Shown here piece after piece: positions 19,834-25,411 of a stretch of 32,000 nt of DNA. The position numbers and the translations under genes were made by a program. Each line of letters begins with the position of its first letter. Within the stretch, counting starts at the first letter, position 1. The notes under the pieces were generated by a model. The model did no database searches. It saw only the letters and a list, made by a program, of their open reading frames with translations, and was not told where the DNA came from. Origin of the DNA: Candidatus Electronema aureum (GTDB lineage Bacteria > Desulfobacterota > Desulfobulbia > Desulfobulbales > Desulfobulbaceae); contig NQJD01000023.1 in NCBI GenBank assembly GCA_004284765.1, positions 1 through 32,000 of the forward strand, written 5' to 3'.

Positions 19834-19863
19834 GGGCGACCCCCTGTGGTCGCCCTTCGTTTG
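19834..19863 (+). terminator. Rho-independent terminator between the kinase gene and the convergent telA-like gene
   Basis: GGGCGACC-ccctgt-GGTCGCCC (perfect 8-bp stem) starts 1 nt after the TAA and is followed by TTCGTTTG. Confidence 0.7.
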
Positions 19864-19881
19864 CAGAGCCAGGCCGATATA

Positions 19882-21033
19882 TCACCTCAGCACTGCCGCG
19901 CTGGCTGCCTTCAACGCCGCTTTCAGCTTCTCTTCAGCCTCAGCCAGTTTCTCTAACCCTTCGGCCCGTTTCTGTCGATTTTCGACATCCATCTTGATAC
20001 CTTGGTCAATAGTTTGCAGGAGCTTGTCCGTCATCAGCTGCAAGGTCTCGACTTTGACAAAGCCCTCGCCCTGCGCCTTCTTCACTGCCGCTTGGGTCTC
20101 ACCCAGCATCTCGGCGGTGGACATCATCATATTGTTGGTCATCTCTCGTGTCTCATTGACCATTGCCATCGCCCGCTTTTGATCAAACAGGGAAATAGCA
20201 ATGACCAGCTGCTTCTTCCATTCTGGTATCATCATCAGGATTGAATCTTGAATTATCTCTACAATCGCTTTGGAGCCTTCTTGGGCAATTCTGATCGTCG
20301 GGCCGGAAGTAACTGCCGAGGCGCGGGCTAACTTCAGGTTGTAGAGGCGCCGGTCAAGCGACTGAATGCAATCGCCGAAGTCTTTCAAATCTTGCAGCTC
20401 CTTGGCATCCACACCATTCTGCGCGGCCAAAGTCTGCCGCTGCTGCTCGAACTGCGTCTCCATCTCAGCCATCTTCAGCTCACCTGCGGCAATCACTACC
20501 TCAAGCTGATCAAAGTATTCGTTGTTGCGGTCATAAAGCGTATCCAAGCGGTTGAGATGGGAAATCTGATTGGTCTTTTCTGCCTCCAGCCGTTTCGTGA
20601 TGGCATCAATCTGCACCTTGAGGGTTTCATAGCGGCGAATAAAGGCGCGTGCCGCATCGACCTTGGCCGCTAACCAACCGCCCACCACCGGCAAGCTACT
20701 AACCACCCTACTCAACGCGCCGCCCGCGCTTTGCGGCAGGCCGCGCACGTCGAGATCAAGGATTTTTCCTTTCAGATCAGACATCAGCTGACCAGTCGGC
20801 CCAGCGTCACCAGAGCGAATGTTGGTCAGCACCGAATCGGTGAAATCAACTAACCCTTTCTGGCTACTCACACCAAAGGCAAGCACGGCCTGTGTCTTGC
20901 TGAAGTCTAACTTGGCGACTAATTCCTGCGCTGCCTTCAGCTTGGCCGGGGACTTCTCCGCTAATTTCATGTACAGCAGGCTGTTCTTCTGCTCTGTCAA
21001 AGCCAGCATCGGCAAATTGTCTGTCATCGTCAT
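19882..21033 (-). CDS. telA: TelA-family (toxic anion resistance / YaaN-like) protein
   Basis: 383 aa and all-helical. The N-terminal region ...LDFSKTQAVLAFGVSSQKGLVDFTDSVLTNIRSGDAGPTGQLMSDLKGKILDLDV matches the conserved TelA N-terminal signature. GGGAGGGA Shine-Dalgarno. Confidence 0.85.
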   Translation of the reverse strand: MTMTDNLPMLALTEQKNSLLYMKLAEKSPAKLKAAQELVAKLDFSKTQAVLAFGVSSQKGLVDFTDSVLTNIRSGDAGPTGQLMSDLKGKILDLDVRGLPQSAGGALSRVVSSLPVVGGWLAAKVDAARAFIRRYETLKVQIDAITKRLEAEKTNQISHLNRLDTLYDRNNEYFDQLEVVIAAGELKMAEMETQFEQQRQTLAAQNGVDAKELQDLKDFGDCIQSLDRRLYNLKLARASAVTSGPTIRIAQEGSKAIVEIIQDSILMMIPEWKKQLVIAISLFDQKRAMAMVNETREMTNNMMMSTAEMLGETQAAVKKAQGEGFVKVETLQLMTDKLLQTIDQGIKMDVENRQKRAEGLEKLAEAEEKLKAALKAASAAVLR

Positions 21034-21057
21034 TCCCTCCCGTCAGCGGGATGCGGG

Positions 21058-22161
21058 TTAAAAGCTGCTGAGTTGCTTGGTGATTTTGTTCATCACTGTC
21101 GCGTTGGGCATGGGTATGACCGCATCGATGCTCTTGGGCAGACCGACTACCTCCAGCACCGAAGGATCATTCTCAACTCCCATCAAGCCGCTGCGGAAGC
21201 CGTGCTGCTCCCAAGCTGACTTCTGAAGTTTTGGTTCTTTGAGCGCAGCCAGCAGCTTCTTCCCTTTGTCGGTCATGGCAATCAGCGGATGGCTGGCCCA
21301 GACCGTCGGCACCGGATAGAGAATGCGCACCTTGGCCTTGAGCAGCTCAAGATGCTCCTTGTGCAGCAGCGAGTATTCTACTAACTGGTTCTCATAGCCA
21401 ACAATCATCGGATACGCCCCAACTCCCTGCTGGAGAAATTTCTCAAAAAGGTCAGACGAAGACTGCTCCATGTAGCCAAGCCGGGCATACAGGTCTTTGA
21501 CTTGGGGCAGCACGTTGTCAACAGTGTCTGTTGCAACCACTTCGCCGTTGTTCAGAGTATTGGCAATCAAGGCAGCAAACATGTTGCCAGAATTGCTCTT
21601 GCTGGGATCGGTGGTGCGGATGATCAAACTGCCGTAAAGCTGGGTCAGGCCGATCTCTTTCCACTGCTTCTTGGTCTTGACCAACTCAAGCAGCTTGGGC
21701 AGGTCAACAATGTAATTAACCCCTTCCTTGTGCTGAACTATCCCGGCCTTGATCAGGGCATCAGTGACGATATCCCAAGAGTACAACACAATGGGCGAGT
21801 TGAAGATGTCTGCCGACTGCTGGAGCCGAGTGCGGGAAGTGGAAGTCTTGAACGACTCCACATTGATCTGGCTGGCTGGCCAGAGAAAATCGTCATCGCT
21901 GGCCGCCTCCTGCACCATCTCCACGCTGCCTGCTTTCTTGACATTCACCTTCAGCCCTTGCTCGGCCAGCAGCTGCGTAACCTTTTCCGATTGGAGAAAG
22001 GCGATCTTCTCCGAACCAGCCCGGCCAGTCACAGTGACCAGCTCGCCTTTGGGTGCGGAGCTACCGCCGCTGATTGAAGAAATCTTGTCCTTGCCGAACA
22101 TGAAGAAGGCCGCAGCCGCAGCCACAGCCAGCAGAATGATCAGCCCTAAGAATTTTTGCAT
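21058..22161 (-). CDS. N-terminally membrane-anchored periplasmic-binding-protein-like (SBP fold) protein
   Basis: A single TM (LGLIILLAVAAAAAFFMF) is followed by a domain that aligns by eye with the N-terminal domain of ORF 23765..25411: GSVEMV/GSVDIS, WPAS, NSPIV/RSPVV, SKSNSGN/TQSNSGT, GYENQ/NYEAM, HGFRSGLMGVENDP/QGRRTGLIGMEADP. GGAGAAGG Shine-Dalgarno. Confidence 0.7.
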   Translation of the reverse strand: MQKFLGLIILLAVAAAAAFFMFGKDKISSISGGSSAPKGELVTVTGRAGSEKIAFLQSEKVTQLLAEQGLKVNVKKAGSVEMVQEAASDDDFLWPASQINVESFKTSTSRTRLQQSADIFNSPIVLYSWDIVTDALIKAGIVQHKEGVNYIVDLPKLLELVKTKKQWKEIGLTQLYGSLIIRTTDPSKSNSGNMFAALIANTLNNGEVVATDTVDNVLPQVKDLYARLGYMEQSSSDLFEKFLQQGVGAYPMIVGYENQLVEYSLLHKEHLELLKAKVRILYPVPTVWASHPLIAMTDKGKKLLAALKEPKLQKSAWEQHGFRSGLMGVENDPSVLEVVGLPKSIDAVIPMPNATVMNKITKQLSSF

Positions 22162-22179: not shown

Positions 22180-22764
22180 TCAGTCAAAGTCGAGCAGATT
22201 ATCAAAGGTTCTGGCATTGGTGCTGAGGTCGATGGCATCGTTTTCTAAGAGTCTATGGTGCATTTCCTCAAACTTGGCTACCGCCTTAGTCACGGCCTTT
22301 TCTGTGGCCTCCAGTGCCCGCGCACTCTGAGGCGAGTGGGTTTTTTGGTTAGCAAGGTCGATGTAACCAACAAGTATCTCGTGGAGCCGTTGCAGGCGGT
22401 CAGGCAAGGCTTGCGCCACCTGCATATCCTGCGGGTCTTTCTCAAAATTGATGAGCAAATCATCGCCCAGCTCGCAAAGATGCAGCACCGTCTTCTTGAA
22501 GGACAGATTATTGACCGCTGCCGCATCCTCGTACACTAAGGACAAGGCCAGCCTGCACTGCGAGAGATACTGCCTGAACTCCTCCTGTGAAACACCGTCC
22601 GGCAGCTCGGCAAGCACCTTGCGGTGTTCCGGCGGGAAAAGCAGGCGGATGCCGACATAACTGCCGATTGCCAGTGCAAGACTCAGCCACCAGAATGCGC
22701 CCTGGAAGAGCAGCAGCAGGAAGATGAAGGCGGCGGCAATGCCGGAGACGAGTTCTTTGATCAT
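22180..22764 (-). CDS. xpaC: XpaC-like two-TM protein (5-bromo-4-chloroindolyl phosphate hydrolysis protein family)
   Basis: Two N-terminal TM helices are followed by a helical cytoplasmic domain of about 140 aa. Its size and architecture, and its pairing with a TelA-family gene, mirror B. subtilis xpaC-yaaN. The family call still needs an HMM check. Confidence 0.55.
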   Translation of the reverse strand: MIKELVSGIAAAFIFLLLLFQGAFWWLSLALAIGSYVGIRLLFPPEHRKVLAELPDGVSQEEFRQYLSQCRLALSLVYEDAAAVNNLSFKKTVLHLCELGDDLLINFEKDPQDMQVAQALPDRLQRLHEILVGYIDLANQKTHSPQSARALEATEKAVTKAVAKFEEMHHRLLENDAIDLSTNARTFDNLLDFD

Positions 22765-23507
22765 TTAGAATATACTGTCCAAGCCCAAGCAGCGAGTGGC
22801 AATATGAGTGTACTCGCTATCCATTGCCAATATTTAACAACAAATAATTTACTTGAATAGATAGGGTTAATCTGAACATATATTTCTTTATCCAGAACCG
22901 GATGATCTTTTTTTTCTTCACCGAATGGCAACCTTATTCGTAAGGTAACATGAAGATGAAGCACCTTTCTCCCTCTATTTAGTGGGACAACGTCCCAAAC
23001 CCACTCTGTAAACCCTTTCTCTCCGAGGATTTGTTCTGCTTCGTTCAATGGGACAATTTGGAAGTCATCTCCGCTGAGACGAACTTTCATTAATTCAGAA
23101 ATTTTCAACTCTTCAATTTGAGGAAATCCGCTCCCTTTCAGGTTACTCCTTAGATTAAGGTACAATTCTCTGGAAATTCTTACTTCTACTCTTTCAGATA
23201 TGCCCAATTTCATCGTATTGGGAGGGTTAAAAAGTATCCTTCCAATTGGCAACTTGCTAAGTTCATTCTGATAAACCTCTCTGTAGCTCGTCTTTTCTCT
23301 ATCTATTGAGATATTACGACGAATCTGATCAAATATAATGCTAAACTCTTCTTGCGTCATGCAGCAACAGCAATATTTTCCTTGGCGGATTGCCCAAAGA
23401 GCAACTCCCGCCACAATCAACATTGCAATACTGCCGATAAGTAACGAAATTGACCAATTGCTGATTATCCATGTGAAAAATATTCTCATAAAATTATTAA
23501 TATCCAT
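22761..23507 (-). CDS. Hypothetical membrane protein: N-terminal TM region, CCCC motif, beta-rich central domain, C-terminal TM
   Basis: 248-aa ORF in an AT-rich stretch. Its stop overlaps the xpaC-like ATG (ATGA at 22761-22764). An alternative start at Met7 (23489) would form another ATGA overlap with the upstream ORF's stop. I recognise no family. Confidence 0.55.
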   Translation of the reverse strand: MDINNFMRIFFTWIISNWSISLLIGSIAMLIVAGVALWAIRQGKYCCCCMTQEEFSIIFDQIRRNISIDREKTSYREVYQNELSKLPIGRILFNPPNTMKLGISERVEVRISRELYLNLRSNLKGSGFPQIEELKISELMKVRLSGDDFQIVPLNEAEQILGEKGFTEWVWDVVPLNRGRKVLHLHVTLRIRLPFGEEKKDHPVLDKEIYVQINPIYSSKLFVVKYWQWIASTLILPLAAWAWTVYSK

Positions 23508-23764
23508 CGATCAATGCCTGCAAGCTGTCCGGGAAGGTTCTGGAGGAGCTTGCGGATGTTCAGCAGCAGATTCGGAACGTCCAAAACGAGATTTAGGATG
23601 TCCGCAGCCTCGTTTTGGACATCCATAGCGAGGTTCAGAACGTTCCTAATGAGCTTTTTGATGTTCAAAATCTCATTAGGGGCCTCCCAAAAGAGGTTCG
23701 GAATGTTCCCGGTCTGCTTCTGAACATCTATGACGAGCTTGTGAACGTTCGCAATGAGCTTCAT
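23486..23764 (-). CDS. 92-aa protein made of 12 tandem heptads [K/N]-L-x-x-[N/D]-[V/I]-x
   Basis: The ATG (23764-23762) directly abuts the TAA of the upstream PBP-vWA gene. The orientation matches the operon. The frame stays open through the twelve 21-nt repeats. The coding status is not proven, because the opposite strand is also open. Confidence 0.5.
   Translation of the reverse strand: MKLIANVHKLVIDVQKQTGNIPNLFWEAPNEILNIKKLIRNVLNLAMDVQNEAADILNLVLDVPNLLLNIRKLLQNLPGQLAGIDRWILIIL
23510..23761. repeat. Twelve imperfect 21-bp tandem repeats (consensus on the minus strand AAS CTC NNN NNG RAC RTY NNN; several units contain the palindrome GAACGTTC)
   Basis: Units were read out one by one from the sequence (23761-23741, 23740-23720, ... 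23530-23510). Confidence 0.85.
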
Positions 23765-25411
23765 TTAATTATACCCCTTCGCCTCTCTGAACGCCTGCAC
23801 CACATCCTTGCGGCCATCAAACATCCGGCCTGACATGGCCTCAGCAAAGGCTTTCATCTGCTCAGGCTTGGCATCACCAAAGAGGATGGTGAAGACCGGC
23901 ACATCCTTGCCCATGTTCGTGCCACCGATCAGCGTCTGGAACTGGTTGAGACTGCCTTCACTCATGCCGTCACTCATCACAATCACCGAGGAATGATACG
24001 TGCCAGATTCAGCCAGCAGCTTCATCTGCTTCATCGCTTCTGCCGCGCCCACGTACATATTGGTGCCGCCGCCCGGCTCCAAGGCTTCTACTTTGGCAAG
24101 CAGCTCGCCCAGCACTTGCGGGTCATTTCCTTTGGCCTCAAAGGAGGGCATCACCCCGCTGTTGAAGGGCACGATGATGGTCATATCCTCTGGCGAGGCT
24201 TGGAGCAGGTATTCTTTGGCAATCCGCTGATCAAGCAAGGTACGCATCGCCTTGCGCAGTTGCTCCACGCCCGTGCCTGCCATACTGCCCGAGTAATCCA
24301 GCACATACGCAGTAAGCGAGGGCTTGCGGAAGGCAGTCTGGTAAAGGTTAAGAGCCTCTGAGACCACTGGTGCGGCGGGAATTCTAATCGGCGTGAGGAT
24401 GCGGCTGAGGTTGATACCCCAGTCAGGATTGAAGACTGCGTTCAGGGCCGCAGCCTTGGCCGGATCAGCCTCCATGCCAATCAAACCAGTGCGGCGGCCT
24501 TGAGCCTGAATGCTATCTTGCACTGCCGGACTAAGCAGGTATTCTTGCAGCTTGGCAAAGACCGCCTCCTTTGCCGCGTCGCCTTTAGCAATGAAGCCGA
24601 GCGGACTGTCAGCGATGGAGATGCCATCGACGGGATACACTGCATACAGCGGCTCTTGGCCGGGCGGCAATTGGCGGTTGAACTCAATCACCATTGCCTC
24701 ATAATTGACCATGCCGTCATAATACAAATACTCCTTGAGCAGCATGTCCTTCAGCCAGCCAGAGCTGCCCGAAGAGCGGTTGACACTGCGCAGGAATCGC
24801 TTGATCTTGTCCGCCGCTTTTGGGTCATTCAGATGCTCGTTCGTCAGCACCTCTGGCCCGCCGGCAAAGGCGGAGAGGAAGGCGAGAAAAGCCGAGGTGC
24901 CGGAGTTAGACTGAGTAGCTGAGGTCATAGCAAAGCGGACATTGCCCTTCTCTACCGCCTCCAGAATCTCCATCACGGTGACATCTTTCTTGTCCCAGCC
25001 AAGCTTGCTGGCAATGGACTTCTTGACCGCAAAGACCACCGGGCTGCGCATGATCGACTTGGCGTTCTTGACCACGCCCTGCTTGTCGCCGAGCGAAAGC
25101 CAGAGACCAGAGGCAGGCCAGATTGCGTCGAACTGTGAGCCTACGCCCTTAGCCAGCTCTAAGCTGATATCAACCGAACCCATGTACTTGATCGAAATGC
25201 CGATGCTCTGCTGCTGGGCAAACTGCTGAAGCAGCGGTTCCAAGGTGCTGTTCTCAGAGCCGGAGACAATGGACAAGGAGCCAACTGGACTAGGGCTGGG
25301 GACTGCTTGCTGATTTGGCGAAGATTGAGGCGGCTGGCTTTGGTCGCAACCGAAAAGGGCAAGAACGGCGAGACTGGTGATCAGAACAATAAAATTACGG
25401 AACGGCTTCAT
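23765..25411 (-). CDS. Lipoprotein with N-terminal PBP-like (solute-binding fold) domain fused to a C-terminal von Willebrand A domain
   Basis: Lipobox ALFG-C and a Q/P/S-rich linker, then the PBP-like domain (see 21058..22161). The C-terminal vWA domain has a complete MIDAS: VLDYSGSM, GGGTNMY, VIVMSDGMSEG. GGGAGGAAG Shine-Dalgarno. Confidence 0.8.
   Translation of the reverse strand: MKPFRNFIVLITSLAVLALFGCDQSQPPQSSPNQQAVPSPSPVGSLSIVSGSENSTLEPLLQQFAQQQSIGISIKYMGSVDISLELAKGVGSQFDAIWPASGLWLSLGDKQGVVKNAKSIMRSPVVFAVKKSIASKLGWDKKDVTVMEILEAVEKGNVRFAMTSATQSNSGTSAFLAFLSAFAGGPEVLTNEHLNDPKAADKIKRFLRSVNRSSGSSGWLKDMLLKEYLYYDGMVNYEAMVIEFNRQLPPGQEPLYAVYPVDGISIADSPLGFIAKGDAAKEAVFAKLQEYLLSPAVQDSIQAQGRRTGLIGMEADPAKAAALNAVFNPDWGINLSRILTPIRIPAAPVVSEALNLYQTAFRKPSLTAYVLDYSGSMAGTGVEQLRKAMRTLLDQRIAKEYLLQASPEDMTIIVPFNSGVMPSFEAKGNDPQVLGELLAKVEALEPGGGTNMYVGAAEAMKQMKLLAESGTYHSSVIVMSDGMSEGSLNQFQTLIGGTNMGKDVPVFTILFGDAKPEQMKAFAEAMSGRMFDGRKDVVQAFREAKGYN

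What the first reader, a model, noticed from the sequence alone, without database searches (positions are those of the whole stretch)
23510..23761. Twelve 21-bp tandem repeats encoding a heptad-only mini-protein, open on both strands
After the initiator Met, the minus-strand ORF reads KLIANVH KLVIDVQ KQTGNIP NLFWEAP NEILNIK KLIRNVL NLAMDVQ NEAADIL NLVLDVP NLLLNIR KLLQNLP GQLAGID. The consensus is [K/N]-L-x-x-[N/D]-[V/I]-x.
Hydrophobic residues at positions 2 and 6 give coiled-coil-like 3-4 spacing. However, Pro at position 7 in four units argues against one continuous helix, so the fold is not obvious and I recognise no family.
At the DNA level the period is 21 bp, exactly two helical turns. 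Units are quasi-self-complementary (AAGCTC / GAGCTT arms around GAACGTTC). As a result the plus strand is also open (ORFs 23514..23723 and 23615..23833) and encodes a similar periodic peptide (EVQNVPN ELFDVQN ... ELVNVRN).
The element could therefore be a novel repeat protein, a phased array of protein-binding DNA sites inside an operon, or both.
Basis: seen in the sequence. Interest (0 to 1): 0.7.

Follow-up and report, generated by a model that had tools for sequence, protein, structure and literature searches.

The report
Palindromic 21-bp DNA array, not protein
The twelve 21-base repeats are real, but related cable bacteria show that selection preserves a mirror-symmetric DNA motif rather than a protein, so the annotated 92-residue "mini-protein" is most likely a by-product of a new, lineage-restricted repeat element whose binding partner is unknown.

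Summary
Window 23510-23761 (Candidatus Electronema aureum) contains 12 in-phase 21-bp units.

The mini-protein interpretation does not hold.
- Orthologous arrays sit at the same VWA|xpaC junction in three other Electronema species, with 17, 12 and 3 units. Length differences are exact multiples of 21 bp.
- In Electronema sp. PJ the heptad frame carries an in-frame TAG. A 1-nt deletion puts the conserved TAAATG start in another frame, and annotators called the opposite strand.
- Across 96 units from seven arrays the consensus is a full palindrome, RANSWSNTYNNGRAYRTYCNN.
- Its G12 is the wobble base of a hypervariable codon (87/96). Its C19 is the first base of a codon giving P/Q/R/H/L (87/96).
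- Between orthologous units the first two bases of codon 4 change most (11/20), while wobble columns 6, 9 and 12 change least (3/30, against 0.41-0.49 at four-fold sites of flanking genes).
- Motif composition alone keeps both heptad frames open.
- No hairpin covariation was found.

Best reading: a cable-bacteria-restricted, low-copy lattice of palindromic sites phased at two helical turns, probably bound by an unidentified dimeric protein just upstream of genes.

The non-coding conclusion is fairly secure. The mechanism is inferred.

The parts
23510..23761 (.). Array of 12 in-phase 21-bp units. Unit k spans 23761-21(k-1) down to 23741-21(k-1) on the minus strand. Family consensus: RANSWSNTYNNGRAYRTYCNN. 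Unit 12 is degenerate.
23554..23645 (.). Best-preserved run: five consecutive perfect 8-bp palindromic cores GRAYRTYC, exactly 21 bp apart.
   Evidence: 4 phased pairs, 0 expected; core score 8/8 in units 6-10
23486..23764 (-). Annotated 92-aa ORF (CDV28_12324). Its ATG abuts the TAA of the VWA gene. Its TGA overlaps Met7 of the next ORF (ATGA). Most likely not a conserved protein-coding gene.
23615..23833 (+). Antisense 72-aa ORF with the same heptad pattern. A by-product of codon-aligned palindromy. It runs antisense into the 3' end of the VWA gene.
23514..23723 (+). Antisense 69-aa ORF in another frame (RF-G/R-T/M-S/F pattern). A by-product.
23765..25411 (-). Upstream gene: lipoprotein with SBP_bac_11 and VWA domains. 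In most relatives it is followed directly by xpaC.
22761..23507 (-). 248-aa (annotated 242-aa) two-TM protein with no Pfam match. A lineage-specific insertion between the array and xpaC in E. aureum. Its family is not otherwise linked to such arrays.
22180..22764 (-). XpaC-like gene (Halogen_Hydrol). In Electronema sp. PJ, JALAAM01 and JC the array ends about 33 nt upstream of this gene's ATG.
19882..22161 (-). 367-aa gene and the TelA gene: the remainder of the conserved operon (context).

Best explanation
The element is a non-coding (DNA-level) tandem array. Each 21-bp unit is an imperfect palindrome with core G-RAY-RTY-C flanked by TY..//..RA. The units repeat strictly every two helical turns, so symmetry axes fall every 10.5 bp and all sites lie on one face of the helix.

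I infer that it is a lattice of binding sites for a symmetric (dimeric or filament-forming) DNA-binding protein of cable bacteria. Bound protein would coat the 60-360 bp just upstream of the next gene (xpaC, or the inserted 248-aa gene in E. aureum) and act as an operator-like or architectural element.

The heptad 'protein' on either strand follows from the genetic code. A motif with A or T at every second codon position (columns 2, 5, 8, 14, 17) reads as polar/hydrophobic heptads. RAY-RTY reads Asn/Asp-Val/Ile on both strands.

**Shown:** periodicity; palindromic logo; nucleotide-level rather than codon-level constraint; non-conservation of the reading frame; whole-unit copy-number change; restriction so far to cable bacteria.

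**Inferred:** that a protein binds the array, and any regulatory consequence. My confidence that the constraint is not protein-coding is about 0.8. My confidence in the binding-lattice mechanism is 0.42, the value given in this field.
For: **1. Orthologous arrays exist at the same junction.**
- Electronema sp. PJ (L183, 17 units), JALAAM01 (L184, 12 units) and JC (L003, 3 units).
- Units correspond one to one (15-19/21 identical).
- Length differences are exact multiples of 21 bp (189 = 9x21).

**2. The reading frame is not conserved.**
- PJ has TAG in the heptad frame.
- A 1-nt deletion in unit 1 means the conserved TAAATG opens a different frame.
- Annotators called the antisense strand in PJ.
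- Even so, 10 of PJ's 17 cores are perfect.

**3. Logo of 96 units from 7 arrays.**
- G12 87/96 and C19 87/96, against background frequencies of 0.295 and 0.244 (P about 1e-36 and 1e-43).
- Information content is mirror-symmetric column by column. Summed over first codon positions it is 4.58 bits, over third positions 4.16 bits.

**4. L183 versus L184 substitutions.**
- Columns 10-11 changed in 11/20 comparisons.
- Wobble columns 6, 9 and 12 changed in 3/30, against 0.41-0.49 at four-fold sites of flanking genes (P = 1e-4).
- Differences by codon position were 12:10:17. Flanking genes show 0.13-0.16 : 0.07-0.10 : 0.44-0.46.

**5. Five close relatives at a second locus.**
- The neighbouring gene varies 0:8 at codon positions 2:3.
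- The array varies 8:3:6 by codon position, with no change in motif columns.
- The ORF tail is 12% variable, mostly non-synonymous.

**6. Open frames need no selection.** They are expected from motif composition.

**7. No hairpin signal.** There is no complementarity excess at the variable mirror columns 10-21 and 11-20, and no compensatory pairs.

**8. Position next to gene starts.**
- At the S41/121-aa locus the first unit lies 40 nt from the divergent gene's ATG, so that gene's promoter must overlap the array.
- In PJ, L184 and JC the array ends about 33 nt before the xpaC ATG.

**9. Low copy and specific.** The phase-aware scanner finds arrays only in the window, L081-L084, L183 and L184 among 1.1 Mb.
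Against: - No candidate DNA-binding protein is encoded next to the arrays in any locus.
- No isolated sites of the 16-bp palindrome exceed chance elsewhere in the window (4 one-mismatch hits against about 3 expected).
- Four of the eight core positions are only R/Y-degenerate. That is unusual for an operator and is just what Asn/Asp and Val/Ile coding would give.
- Copy number ranges from 17 down to 3 units, and to 0 in sister species, so any function is dispensable or dosage-tolerant.
- In E. aureum the ORF has coupling-type junctions (TAAATG and ATGA).
- In PJ an alternative sense frame is open from the ATG to an ATGA overlap with xpaC (P = 0.04 under the column shuffle). This hints that translation across the array may matter.
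- Real arrays fold more stably than column-shuffled ones (z from -0.7 to -4.4).
Confidence: 0.42

Rival explanations
1. Neutral or selfish palindromic minisatellite. The array has no cellular function. It expands, contracts and inverts units by slippage, unequal exchange and strand-switching at the palindromic cores. Concerted evolution keeps the motif.
For: - Copy number is 17, 12, 12, 3, about 1 or 0 at one locus in sister species, always changing in whole units.
- Some units within an array are exact direct or inverted copies of each other at 8-9 of 9 variable positions.
- Reverse-complement codon pairs co-occur at columns 4-6: CTC/GAG, CTG/CAG, GCC/GGC, GTC/GAC.
- The arrays sit beside variable toxin-antitoxin cassettes.
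Against: - Orthologous units diverge at 0.19 per site against 0.41-0.49 at neutral four-fold sites. The deficit is concentrated in specific columns.
- The same motif is kept in arrays at unrelated loci, in Electronema and Electrothrix, and at locus GC contents from 0.37 to 0.59.
- The element is low-copy, unlike selfish repeats.
Confidence: 0.2
2. RNA (or single-strand DNA) structure element. Transcribed within the operon, units in opposite orientation pair into a series of long hairpins. These would modulate mRNA stability, processing or polarity between the VWA gene and downstream genes, as REP/BIME clusters do.
For: - The sense RNA folds at -92 kcal/mol, z = -5.3 against dinucleotide shuffles.
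- All seven arrays fold better than column-preserving shuffles (z -0.7 to -4.4).
- Inverted unit copies give stems of up to 17 bp.
- The location is intergenic within an operon in Electronema.
Against: - What is conserved is sequence identity at fixed columns, not complementarity.
- The variable mirror columns show no excess pairing. Columns 13-18 and 15-16 pair less than expected.
- There are 0 compensatory pairs among 121 predicted pairs in four relatives, and several pairs are broken.
- The 8-bp core cannot pair with itself.
- There is no Rfam match.
- A strict 21-nt phase is not needed for hairpins.
Confidence: 0.15
3. Genuine translated heptad mini-protein (amphipathic helical or coiled-coil peptide), possibly readable from either strand.
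For: - The ORF fills the gap exactly, with TAAATG and ATGA junctions and an AAGGGG upstream.
- The heptad has hydrophobic residues at positions 3 and 6 and polar residues at 1 and 5.
- AlphaFold predicts helices.
- Similar small ORFs are called in other cable bacteria.
- There are weak sub-threshold hits to coiled-coil-like families DUF948 and DUF1664.
Against: - Stop and frameshift in the PJ ortholog; the annotated strand differs between species.
- Substitution pattern is not codon-like, and wobble bases are conserved.
- Position 7 is exactly the CNN codon set (P/Q/R/H/L). Position 4 shows radical replacements (W/A/R/E/L) with its G retained.
- Peptide identity is 39-46% between species whose flanking VWA proteins are 85-87% identical.
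- Mean pLDDT is 63.6 and pTM 0.33.
- No Pfam, NCBIfam or PADLOC family matches.
- Open frames are expected by chance.
Confidence: 0.1

Closest known systems
Tandem centromere or operator repeats bound cooperatively by dimeric (ribbon-helix-helix type) proteins, e.g. the 20-bp parC repeats of plasmid pSK41 bound by ParR, and MetJ boxes (AGACGTCT). Recalled from my own knowledge; not tested here.
   Same: - Head-to-tail repeats with a period of about two helical turns.
- Locally palindromic sites. The 8-bp core G-RAY-RTY-C has the same RAY|RTY centre as the MetJ box.
- The array lies just upstream of genes.
   Different: - No partition or repressor gene is adjacent.
- The location is chromosomal, inside or beside ordinary operons.
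- Units are only about 50% identical, with R/Y-degenerate cores.
- MetJ boxes abut at an 8-bp period, not 21 bp.
- Binding has not been demonstrated.
Iterons lying inside a coding region, e.g. the dyad-symmetric ori-lambda repeats within gene O. Recalled from my own knowledge.
   Same: Palindromic repeats of about 20 bp whose DNA function imposes a repeated amino-acid pattern on an overlapping reading frame.
   Different: - There is no evidence of a replication origin or initiator gene.
- Here there are 12-17 copies rather than 4.
- The reading frame is not conserved.
REP/BIME clusters of enterobacteria. Recalled from my own knowledge.
   Same: - Extragenic palindromic units in alternating orientation.
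- Variable copy number, often between genes of an operon.
- Able to form RNA hairpins.
   Different: - REP units are hairpins of about 35 bp with compensatory stems and occur hundreds of times per genome.
- These units are 21 bp, cannot fold individually, show no covariation and are low-copy.
Heptad-repeat coiled-coil proteins
   Same: A 7-residue period with a hydrophobic 3-4 spacing. Helical prediction.
   Different: - No conserved frame.
- Nucleotide-level rather than amino-acid-level constraint.
- Pro or any other CNN-encoded residue at position 7.

Membership tests
Conserved protein-coding gene (heptad/coiled-coil mini-protein) | The same reading frame is intact in orthologs | tested here: not met
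   PJ ortholog: TAG in the heptad frame and a 1-nt deletion after the ATG; the antisense strand was annotated instead.
Conserved protein-coding gene (heptad/coiled-coil mini-protein) | Substitutions concentrated at synonymous (third-codon) positions | tested here: not met
   L183 versus L184: 12:10:17 differences by codon position. Wobble columns 6, 9 and 12 changed in 3/30 comparisons against a neutral 0.41-0.49. Close relatives: 8:3:6.
Conserved protein-coding gene (heptad/coiled-coil mini-protein) | Match to a known protein family or a confident fold | tested here: not met
   No Pfam, NCBIfam or PADLOC hit. AlphaFold mean pLDDT 63.6, pTM 0.33.
Conserved protein-coding gene (heptad/coiled-coil mini-protein) | Open frame beyond chance, with start and ribosome-binding signals | tested here: inconclusive
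   E. aureum has TAAATG, an upstream AAGGGG and an ATGA overlap. P(open) from motif composition alone is 0.66. L184 would need a TTG start without a Shine-Dalgarno sequence.
Phased protein-binding repeat array (iteron / centromere / operator lattice) | Tandem sites with constant helical phasing | tested here: met
   Strict 21-bp register over 10-17 units in 7 arrays. Indels occur only as whole units.
Phased protein-binding repeat array (iteron / centromere / operator lattice) | Sequence constraint on the DNA itself, dyad-symmetric | tested here: met
   Mirror-symmetric logo. G12/C19 are conserved irrespective of codon position.
Phased protein-binding repeat array (iteron / centromere / operator lattice) | A cognate DNA-binding protein, usually encoded nearby, binds the repeats | not testable with these tools
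   No DNA-binding gene is adjacent in the window. A ParA-like gene lies 2.2 kb from the Electrothrix array, which proves nothing. Needs EMSA, DAP-seq or pull-down.
REP/BIME-type extragenic palindromes | Each unit forms a stem-loop maintained by compensatory changes | tested here: not met
   No excess complementarity at variable mirror columns. 0 compensatory pairs.
REP/BIME-type extragenic palindromes | High copy number dispersed through the genome | tested here: inconclusive
   One array in the 32-kb window and 7 in 1.1 Mb of fetched loci. Only one ORF of this kind from E. aureum appears in the protein libraries. The whole genome was not scanned.
Known RNA families (Rfam) | Covariance-model match | tested here: not met
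   No match on the array at E<=1.
TelA/XpaC/VWA stress cluster component | Present in related clusters | tested here: not met
   In nearly all related loci the VWA gene is followed directly by xpaC. No array was detected by the phase scanner in any of the 79 related loci scanned with a complete VWA match (of 80 fetched). Within the cluster, arrays were found only in some Electronema species (window, L183, L184; 3-unit remnant in L003).

The most novel reading that the evidence does not exclude
A strand-symmetric coding repeat. The arrays encode amphipathic heptad peptides that can be expressed from either strand: sense in E. aureum and JALAAM01, antisense in PJ. The codon-aligned palindromy is maintained so that unit duplication and inversion never destroy the product. 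This would be a gene family whose coding strand is interchangeable.

A less exotic alternative deserves about 0.6 interest. In it, the array is the recognition lattice of an undiscovered cable-bacteria-specific DNA-coating protein.
Probability: 0.06. Interest if true: 0.85.

Novelty: new variant of a known kind. Interest (0 to 1): 0.42.

Why it matters
**Annotation.** Hypothetical proteins such as CDV28_12324 (E. aureum), D3916_05710 (Electrothrix MAN1_4), the antisense 106-aa ORF called in PJ, and the 255-298-aa extensions of a 121-aa gene are probably artefacts. They arise from a DNA repeat that stays open in several frames.

**Biology.** The array defines a previously undescribed repeat family, so far seen only in cable bacteria. 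It is low-copy and under nucleotide-level selection. It sits immediately upstream of genes and beside hotspots where toxin-antitoxin and other cassettes insert. If a protein coats these lattices, it would be a new regulatory or architectural system in an uncultured, physiologically unusual lineage.

**Method.** This is a clean worked example of how a palindromic DNA motif mimics a heptad protein on both strands, and of how wobble-position conservation exposes it.

Tried and rejected
- **Tandem Repeats Finder** does not see the array.
- **Word-seeded protein search** found only the query itself. Full HMMER found a handful of small heptad ORFs plus many unrelated eukaryotic or viral 7-mer repeats, which I discarded.
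- **L085/P0134** turned out to be a different palindrome arrangement (GTTC-N-GAAC) and was excluded from the family.
- **Partnership with the 248-aa gene family** was tested and rejected. Eighty metagenomic loci of that family carry no such array.
- **tblastn against plasmids and phages** gave no match.
- **Viral-contig scan** for four phased cores returned only perfect 21-bp minisatellites that contain the motif by chance.
- **A crude lag-21 scan** was too permissive, because it picks up coding periodicity.
- **tRNA scan** of the related loci was negative.
- **Promoter and terminator scan** showed nothing in the array above shuffle expectation.
- **RNAalifold** on four close relatives had too little divergence to be decisive.
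- **AlphaFold** gave a low-confidence helix, so no fold search was run.
- **Literature searches** for such repeats in cable bacteria, and for the locus tag, found nothing relevant.
- **The test of intra-array against inter-array inverted similarity** is confounded by GC content. Only the exact inverted copies are used as evidence.
- **P0129** could not be located on a contig.

Full report
**1. What is there**

The window comes from Candidatus Electronema aureum, a freshwater cable bacterium. The 92-aa ORF is 100% identical to the hypothetical protein CDV28_12324.

Positions 23510-23761 hold twelve units of exactly 21 bp in one register.
- Self-identity is 0.50-0.52 at shifts 21, 42 and 63, against about 0.17-0.35 at other shifts.
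- Tandem Repeats Finder misses the array because units are only about 50% alike.
- The phased pattern GRAYRTYC-N13-GRAYRTYC occurs four times, all inside the array, with none in 100 shuffles.

**2. Genomic context**

The minus strand carries, in order:
- an SBP_bac_11+VWA lipoprotein gene (23765..25411);
- the array ORF;
- a 248-aa two-TM protein with no family match (22761..23507);
- an XpaC-like gene;
- a 367-aa gene;
- TelA.

In 79 related loci from many phyla, the VWA gene is almost always followed directly by the XpaC-like gene. The array and the 248-aa gene are therefore lineage-specific additions to a widespread cluster.

The 248-aa protein belongs to a family with a conserved C-terminal domain of about 160 aa. 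Eighty metagenomic loci of that family contain no such array, so the two are not a module.

**3. Relatives of the array**

A full HMMER scan found a few small ORFs with the same heptad [N/D/K]-x-h-x-[N/D]-[V/I]-[P/Q/R/H/L]. Their contigs come from cable bacteria.
- L081 is Ca. Electrothrix sp. MAN1_4.
- L083 and its close relatives L185-L188 share a 90%-identity S41-peptidase cluster with Ca. Electronema sp. TJ.
- L082 is the orthologous locus in a more distant relative.

More importantly, the array is present at the same VWA|xpaC junction in other Electronema species:

| Species (locus) | Units | Notes |
|---|---|---|
| PJ (L183) | 17 | Array lies directly between the VWA gene and xpaC |
| JALAAM01 (L184) | 12 | Preceded by two toxin-antitoxin cassettes |
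| JC (L003) | 3 | Same flanks as L184; exactly 189 = 9x21 bp shorter |

These rest. Species KV and E. halotolerans have none. UBA5173 has at most one remnant unit.

A phase-aware scanner finds arrays only in the window, L081-L084, L183 and L184 among 1.1 Mb of fetched DNA. The short JC remnant was found by eye.

**4. Coding or not**

*(a) The reading frame is not conserved.*
- In PJ the heptad frame has an in-frame TAG (NDV*DVK).
- The TAAATG start is conserved, but a 1-nt deletion in unit 1 puts it in a different frame.
- The annotators called a 106-aa ORF on the opposite strand.
- Despite this, 10 of PJ's 17 cores are perfect.

*(b) The pooled logo of 96 units is RANSWSNTYNNGRAYRTYCNN.*
- Its strongest columns are A14, T17, G12, C19, T8 and A2.
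- G12 is the third base of codon 4, whose amino acid is hypervariable (W, A, L, R, Q, T, M, G, K, E...).
- C19 is the first base of codon 7. That explains the otherwise senseless residue set P/Q/R/H/L, which is precisely all CNN codons.
- Each is 87/96, against background frequencies of 0.295 and 0.244 (P about 1e-36 and 1e-43).
- Information content is mirror-symmetric about a dyad between columns 15 and 16 and a second dyad on column 5.
- Summed over first codon positions it is 4.58 bits, and over third positions 4.16 bits, so there is no strand or codon asymmetry.

*(c) Ten orthologous unit pairs of L183 and L184.*

| Class of site | Changes observed | Comparison |
|---|---|---|
| Columns 10-11 (first two bases of codon 4) | 11/20 | The most variable columns |
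| Wobble columns 6, 9, 12 | 3/30 | 0.41-0.49 at four-fold sites of flanking genes (P = 1e-4) |
| By codon position 1:2:3 | 12:10:17 | Flanking genes 0.13-0.16 : 0.07-0.10 : 0.44-0.46 |

*(d) Five close relatives at the S41 locus.*
- The neighbouring 121-aa gene shows the classic pattern: 0 changes at second positions and 8 at third.
- The array shows 8:3:6 by codon position, with no change in the motif columns.
- The non-repeat tail of the called ORF is 12% variable, almost all non-synonymous.
- A TGA/GGA polymorphism opens or closes the antisense frame. Annotators have therefore variously called 121-aa, 255-aa, 291-aa and 298-aa proteins.

*(e) Open frames on both strands need no selection.* Only codons 2 and 4 can ever be stops. 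Column-preserving shuffles leave the sense heptad frame open with P = 0.66 in E. aureum. The antisense heptad frame has 1 stop observed against 0.89 expected.

*(f) Protein-level evidence is weak.*
- Peptide identity between species is 39-46%, where the flanking VWA proteins are 85-87% identical.
- Each array's two strands encode mutually 'homologous' peptides (36-43% identity).
- No protein family matches.
- AlphaFold gives a low-confidence helix (pLDDT 63.6, pTM 0.33).

I conclude, with about 0.8 confidence, that selection acts on the nucleotide motif and not on a protein.

**5. Why it looks like a heptad protein**

The dyads fall on a codon boundary and on the middle of a codon, so the reverse complement is codon-aligned. 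A or T at second codon positions (columns 2, 5, 8, 14, 17) gives polar or hydrophobic residues. RAY-RTY reads Asn/Asp-Val/Ile on both strands. CTC and GAG (Leu and Glu) are each other's complement.

Within arrays, the column 4-6 triplets occur as reverse-complement pairs: CTC/GAG, CTG/CAG, GCC/GGC, GTC/GAC. Some units are exact inverted copies of others at 8-9 of 9 variable positions. This is a DNA-level signature that no single-strand protein model predicts.

**6. What it does (inferred)**

*RNA or DNA hairpins.*
- The array RNA is very stable (z = -5.3).
- Real arrays fold better than column-shuffled ones (z -0.7 to -4.4).
- However, the variable mirror columns show no excess complementarity, and columns 13-18 and 15-16 pair less than expected.
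- There are no compensatory pairs.
- What is conserved is base identity at fixed columns.
- Rfam has no match.

*Protein-binding lattice.* The features below fit best with a lattice of sites for a symmetric DNA-binding protein, all on one face of the helix, acting as an operator-like or architectural element:
- a strict 21.0-bp phase;
- dyads every 10.5 bp;
- low copy number;
- position directly upstream of start codons. The array ends about 33 nt before xpaC in PJ, L184 and JC. Its first unit lies 40 nt from the divergent 121-aa gene, so that gene's promoter must overlap the array. In E. aureum it abuts the inserted 248-aa gene.

*Caveats.*
- No binder is identified.
- No isolated sites occur elsewhere in the window above chance.
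- The core is R/Y-degenerate.
- Copy number is highly variable.
- Sense-strand ORFs bridging the neighbouring genes exist in several species, in different frames.

*Rivals.* I give 0.42 to the binding-lattice reading. A functionless palindromic minisatellite gets about 0.2. It is opposed by the column-specific deficit of substitutions and by motif conservation across loci, genera and GC contents. An RNA-structure element gets about 0.15, and a real peptide about 0.1.

**7. Comparison with known things**

The closest analogues, recalled from my own knowledge and not tested here, are:
- cooperative repeat arrays bound by dimeric proteins (pSK41 parC/ParR 20-bp repeats; MetJ boxes AGACGTCT, which share the RAY|RTY centre);
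- iterons embedded in coding sequence (ori-lambda in gene O);
- REP/BIME clusters.

Membership in any of these fails or cannot be tested. There is no adjacent partner gene, no hairpin covariation, and copy number is low. I found no description of such repeats in the cable-bacteria literature held here.

I therefore class it as a new variant of a known kind (phased palindromic repeat arrays), of moderate interest. It also serves as a correction to annotation.

Noticed in passing
window 22761-23764; L184:5636-7375; L003:6630-7521; L002:6688-7587: The VWA|xpaC junction is a cassette-insertion hotspot in Electronema.
- E. aureum: the 248-aa membrane protein.
- JALAAM01: a DUF6290+PIN pair and a HEPN/MNT-type pair.
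- JC: a HEPN/MNT-type pair.
- KV: two unrelated ORFs of 175 and 110 aa.

Insertions lie on either side of the array.
   Followed up: partly
L083:1608-2660; L185, L187, L188 (same locus): A second array locus lies next to an S41 peptidase and a conserved 121-aa gene. Variable MazE-PIN or MazE-x-HNH cassettes lie beyond the array. The 121-aa gene is annotated as 255-298 aa in some assemblies, because the antisense array frame reads through into it. A TGA/GGA polymorphism decides which.
   Followed up: yes
L085:564-1158: A different 21-bp tandem array built on the 15-bp palindrome CATGTTCWGAACATG. It lies inside a called 283-aa ORF whose N-terminus resembles a TetR-type helix-turn-helix (Pfam TetR_N, E=0.002, below threshold). 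It may be another palindromic site array that mimics a heptad protein.
   Followed up: partly
L004:6627-6787: In Desulfobulbaceae UBA5173 (Electronema-like) the VWA|xpaC gap has no array. It contains other inverted repeats (GGACTTATAYACGTWAGTC-like) and one possible remnant unit (CGGAATGTTT).
   Followed up: no
window 22761-23507: The 248-aa protein belongs to an uncharacterised family. Its conserved C-terminal domain of about 160 aa has no Pfam match. Elsewhere the domain is fused to PNP_UDP, pentapeptide, TPR, HEAT, fn3 or CarboxypepD_reg N-termini. One member (P0186) has an 8-residue N-terminal tandem repeat.
   Followed up: partly
window 22889-22938 (-): A weak Rfam match to RAGATH-25 (26.4 bits, gathering score 49, E=9e-4) inside the 248-aa coding region. 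Probably chance.
   Followed up: no
window 19852-20065 and 20577-20752: A crude lag-21 identity scan flagged two stretches inside the TelA gene. This is probably ordinary heptad or codon periodicity of a helical protein. They contain no GRAYRTYC phasing.
   Followed up: partly
L081:2854-3879 (-): A ParA-family ATPase gene lies 2.2 kb from the Electrothrix MAN1_4 array on a 4.4-kb contig. This would be compatible with a partition-site reading, but it is a single instance.
   Followed up: no
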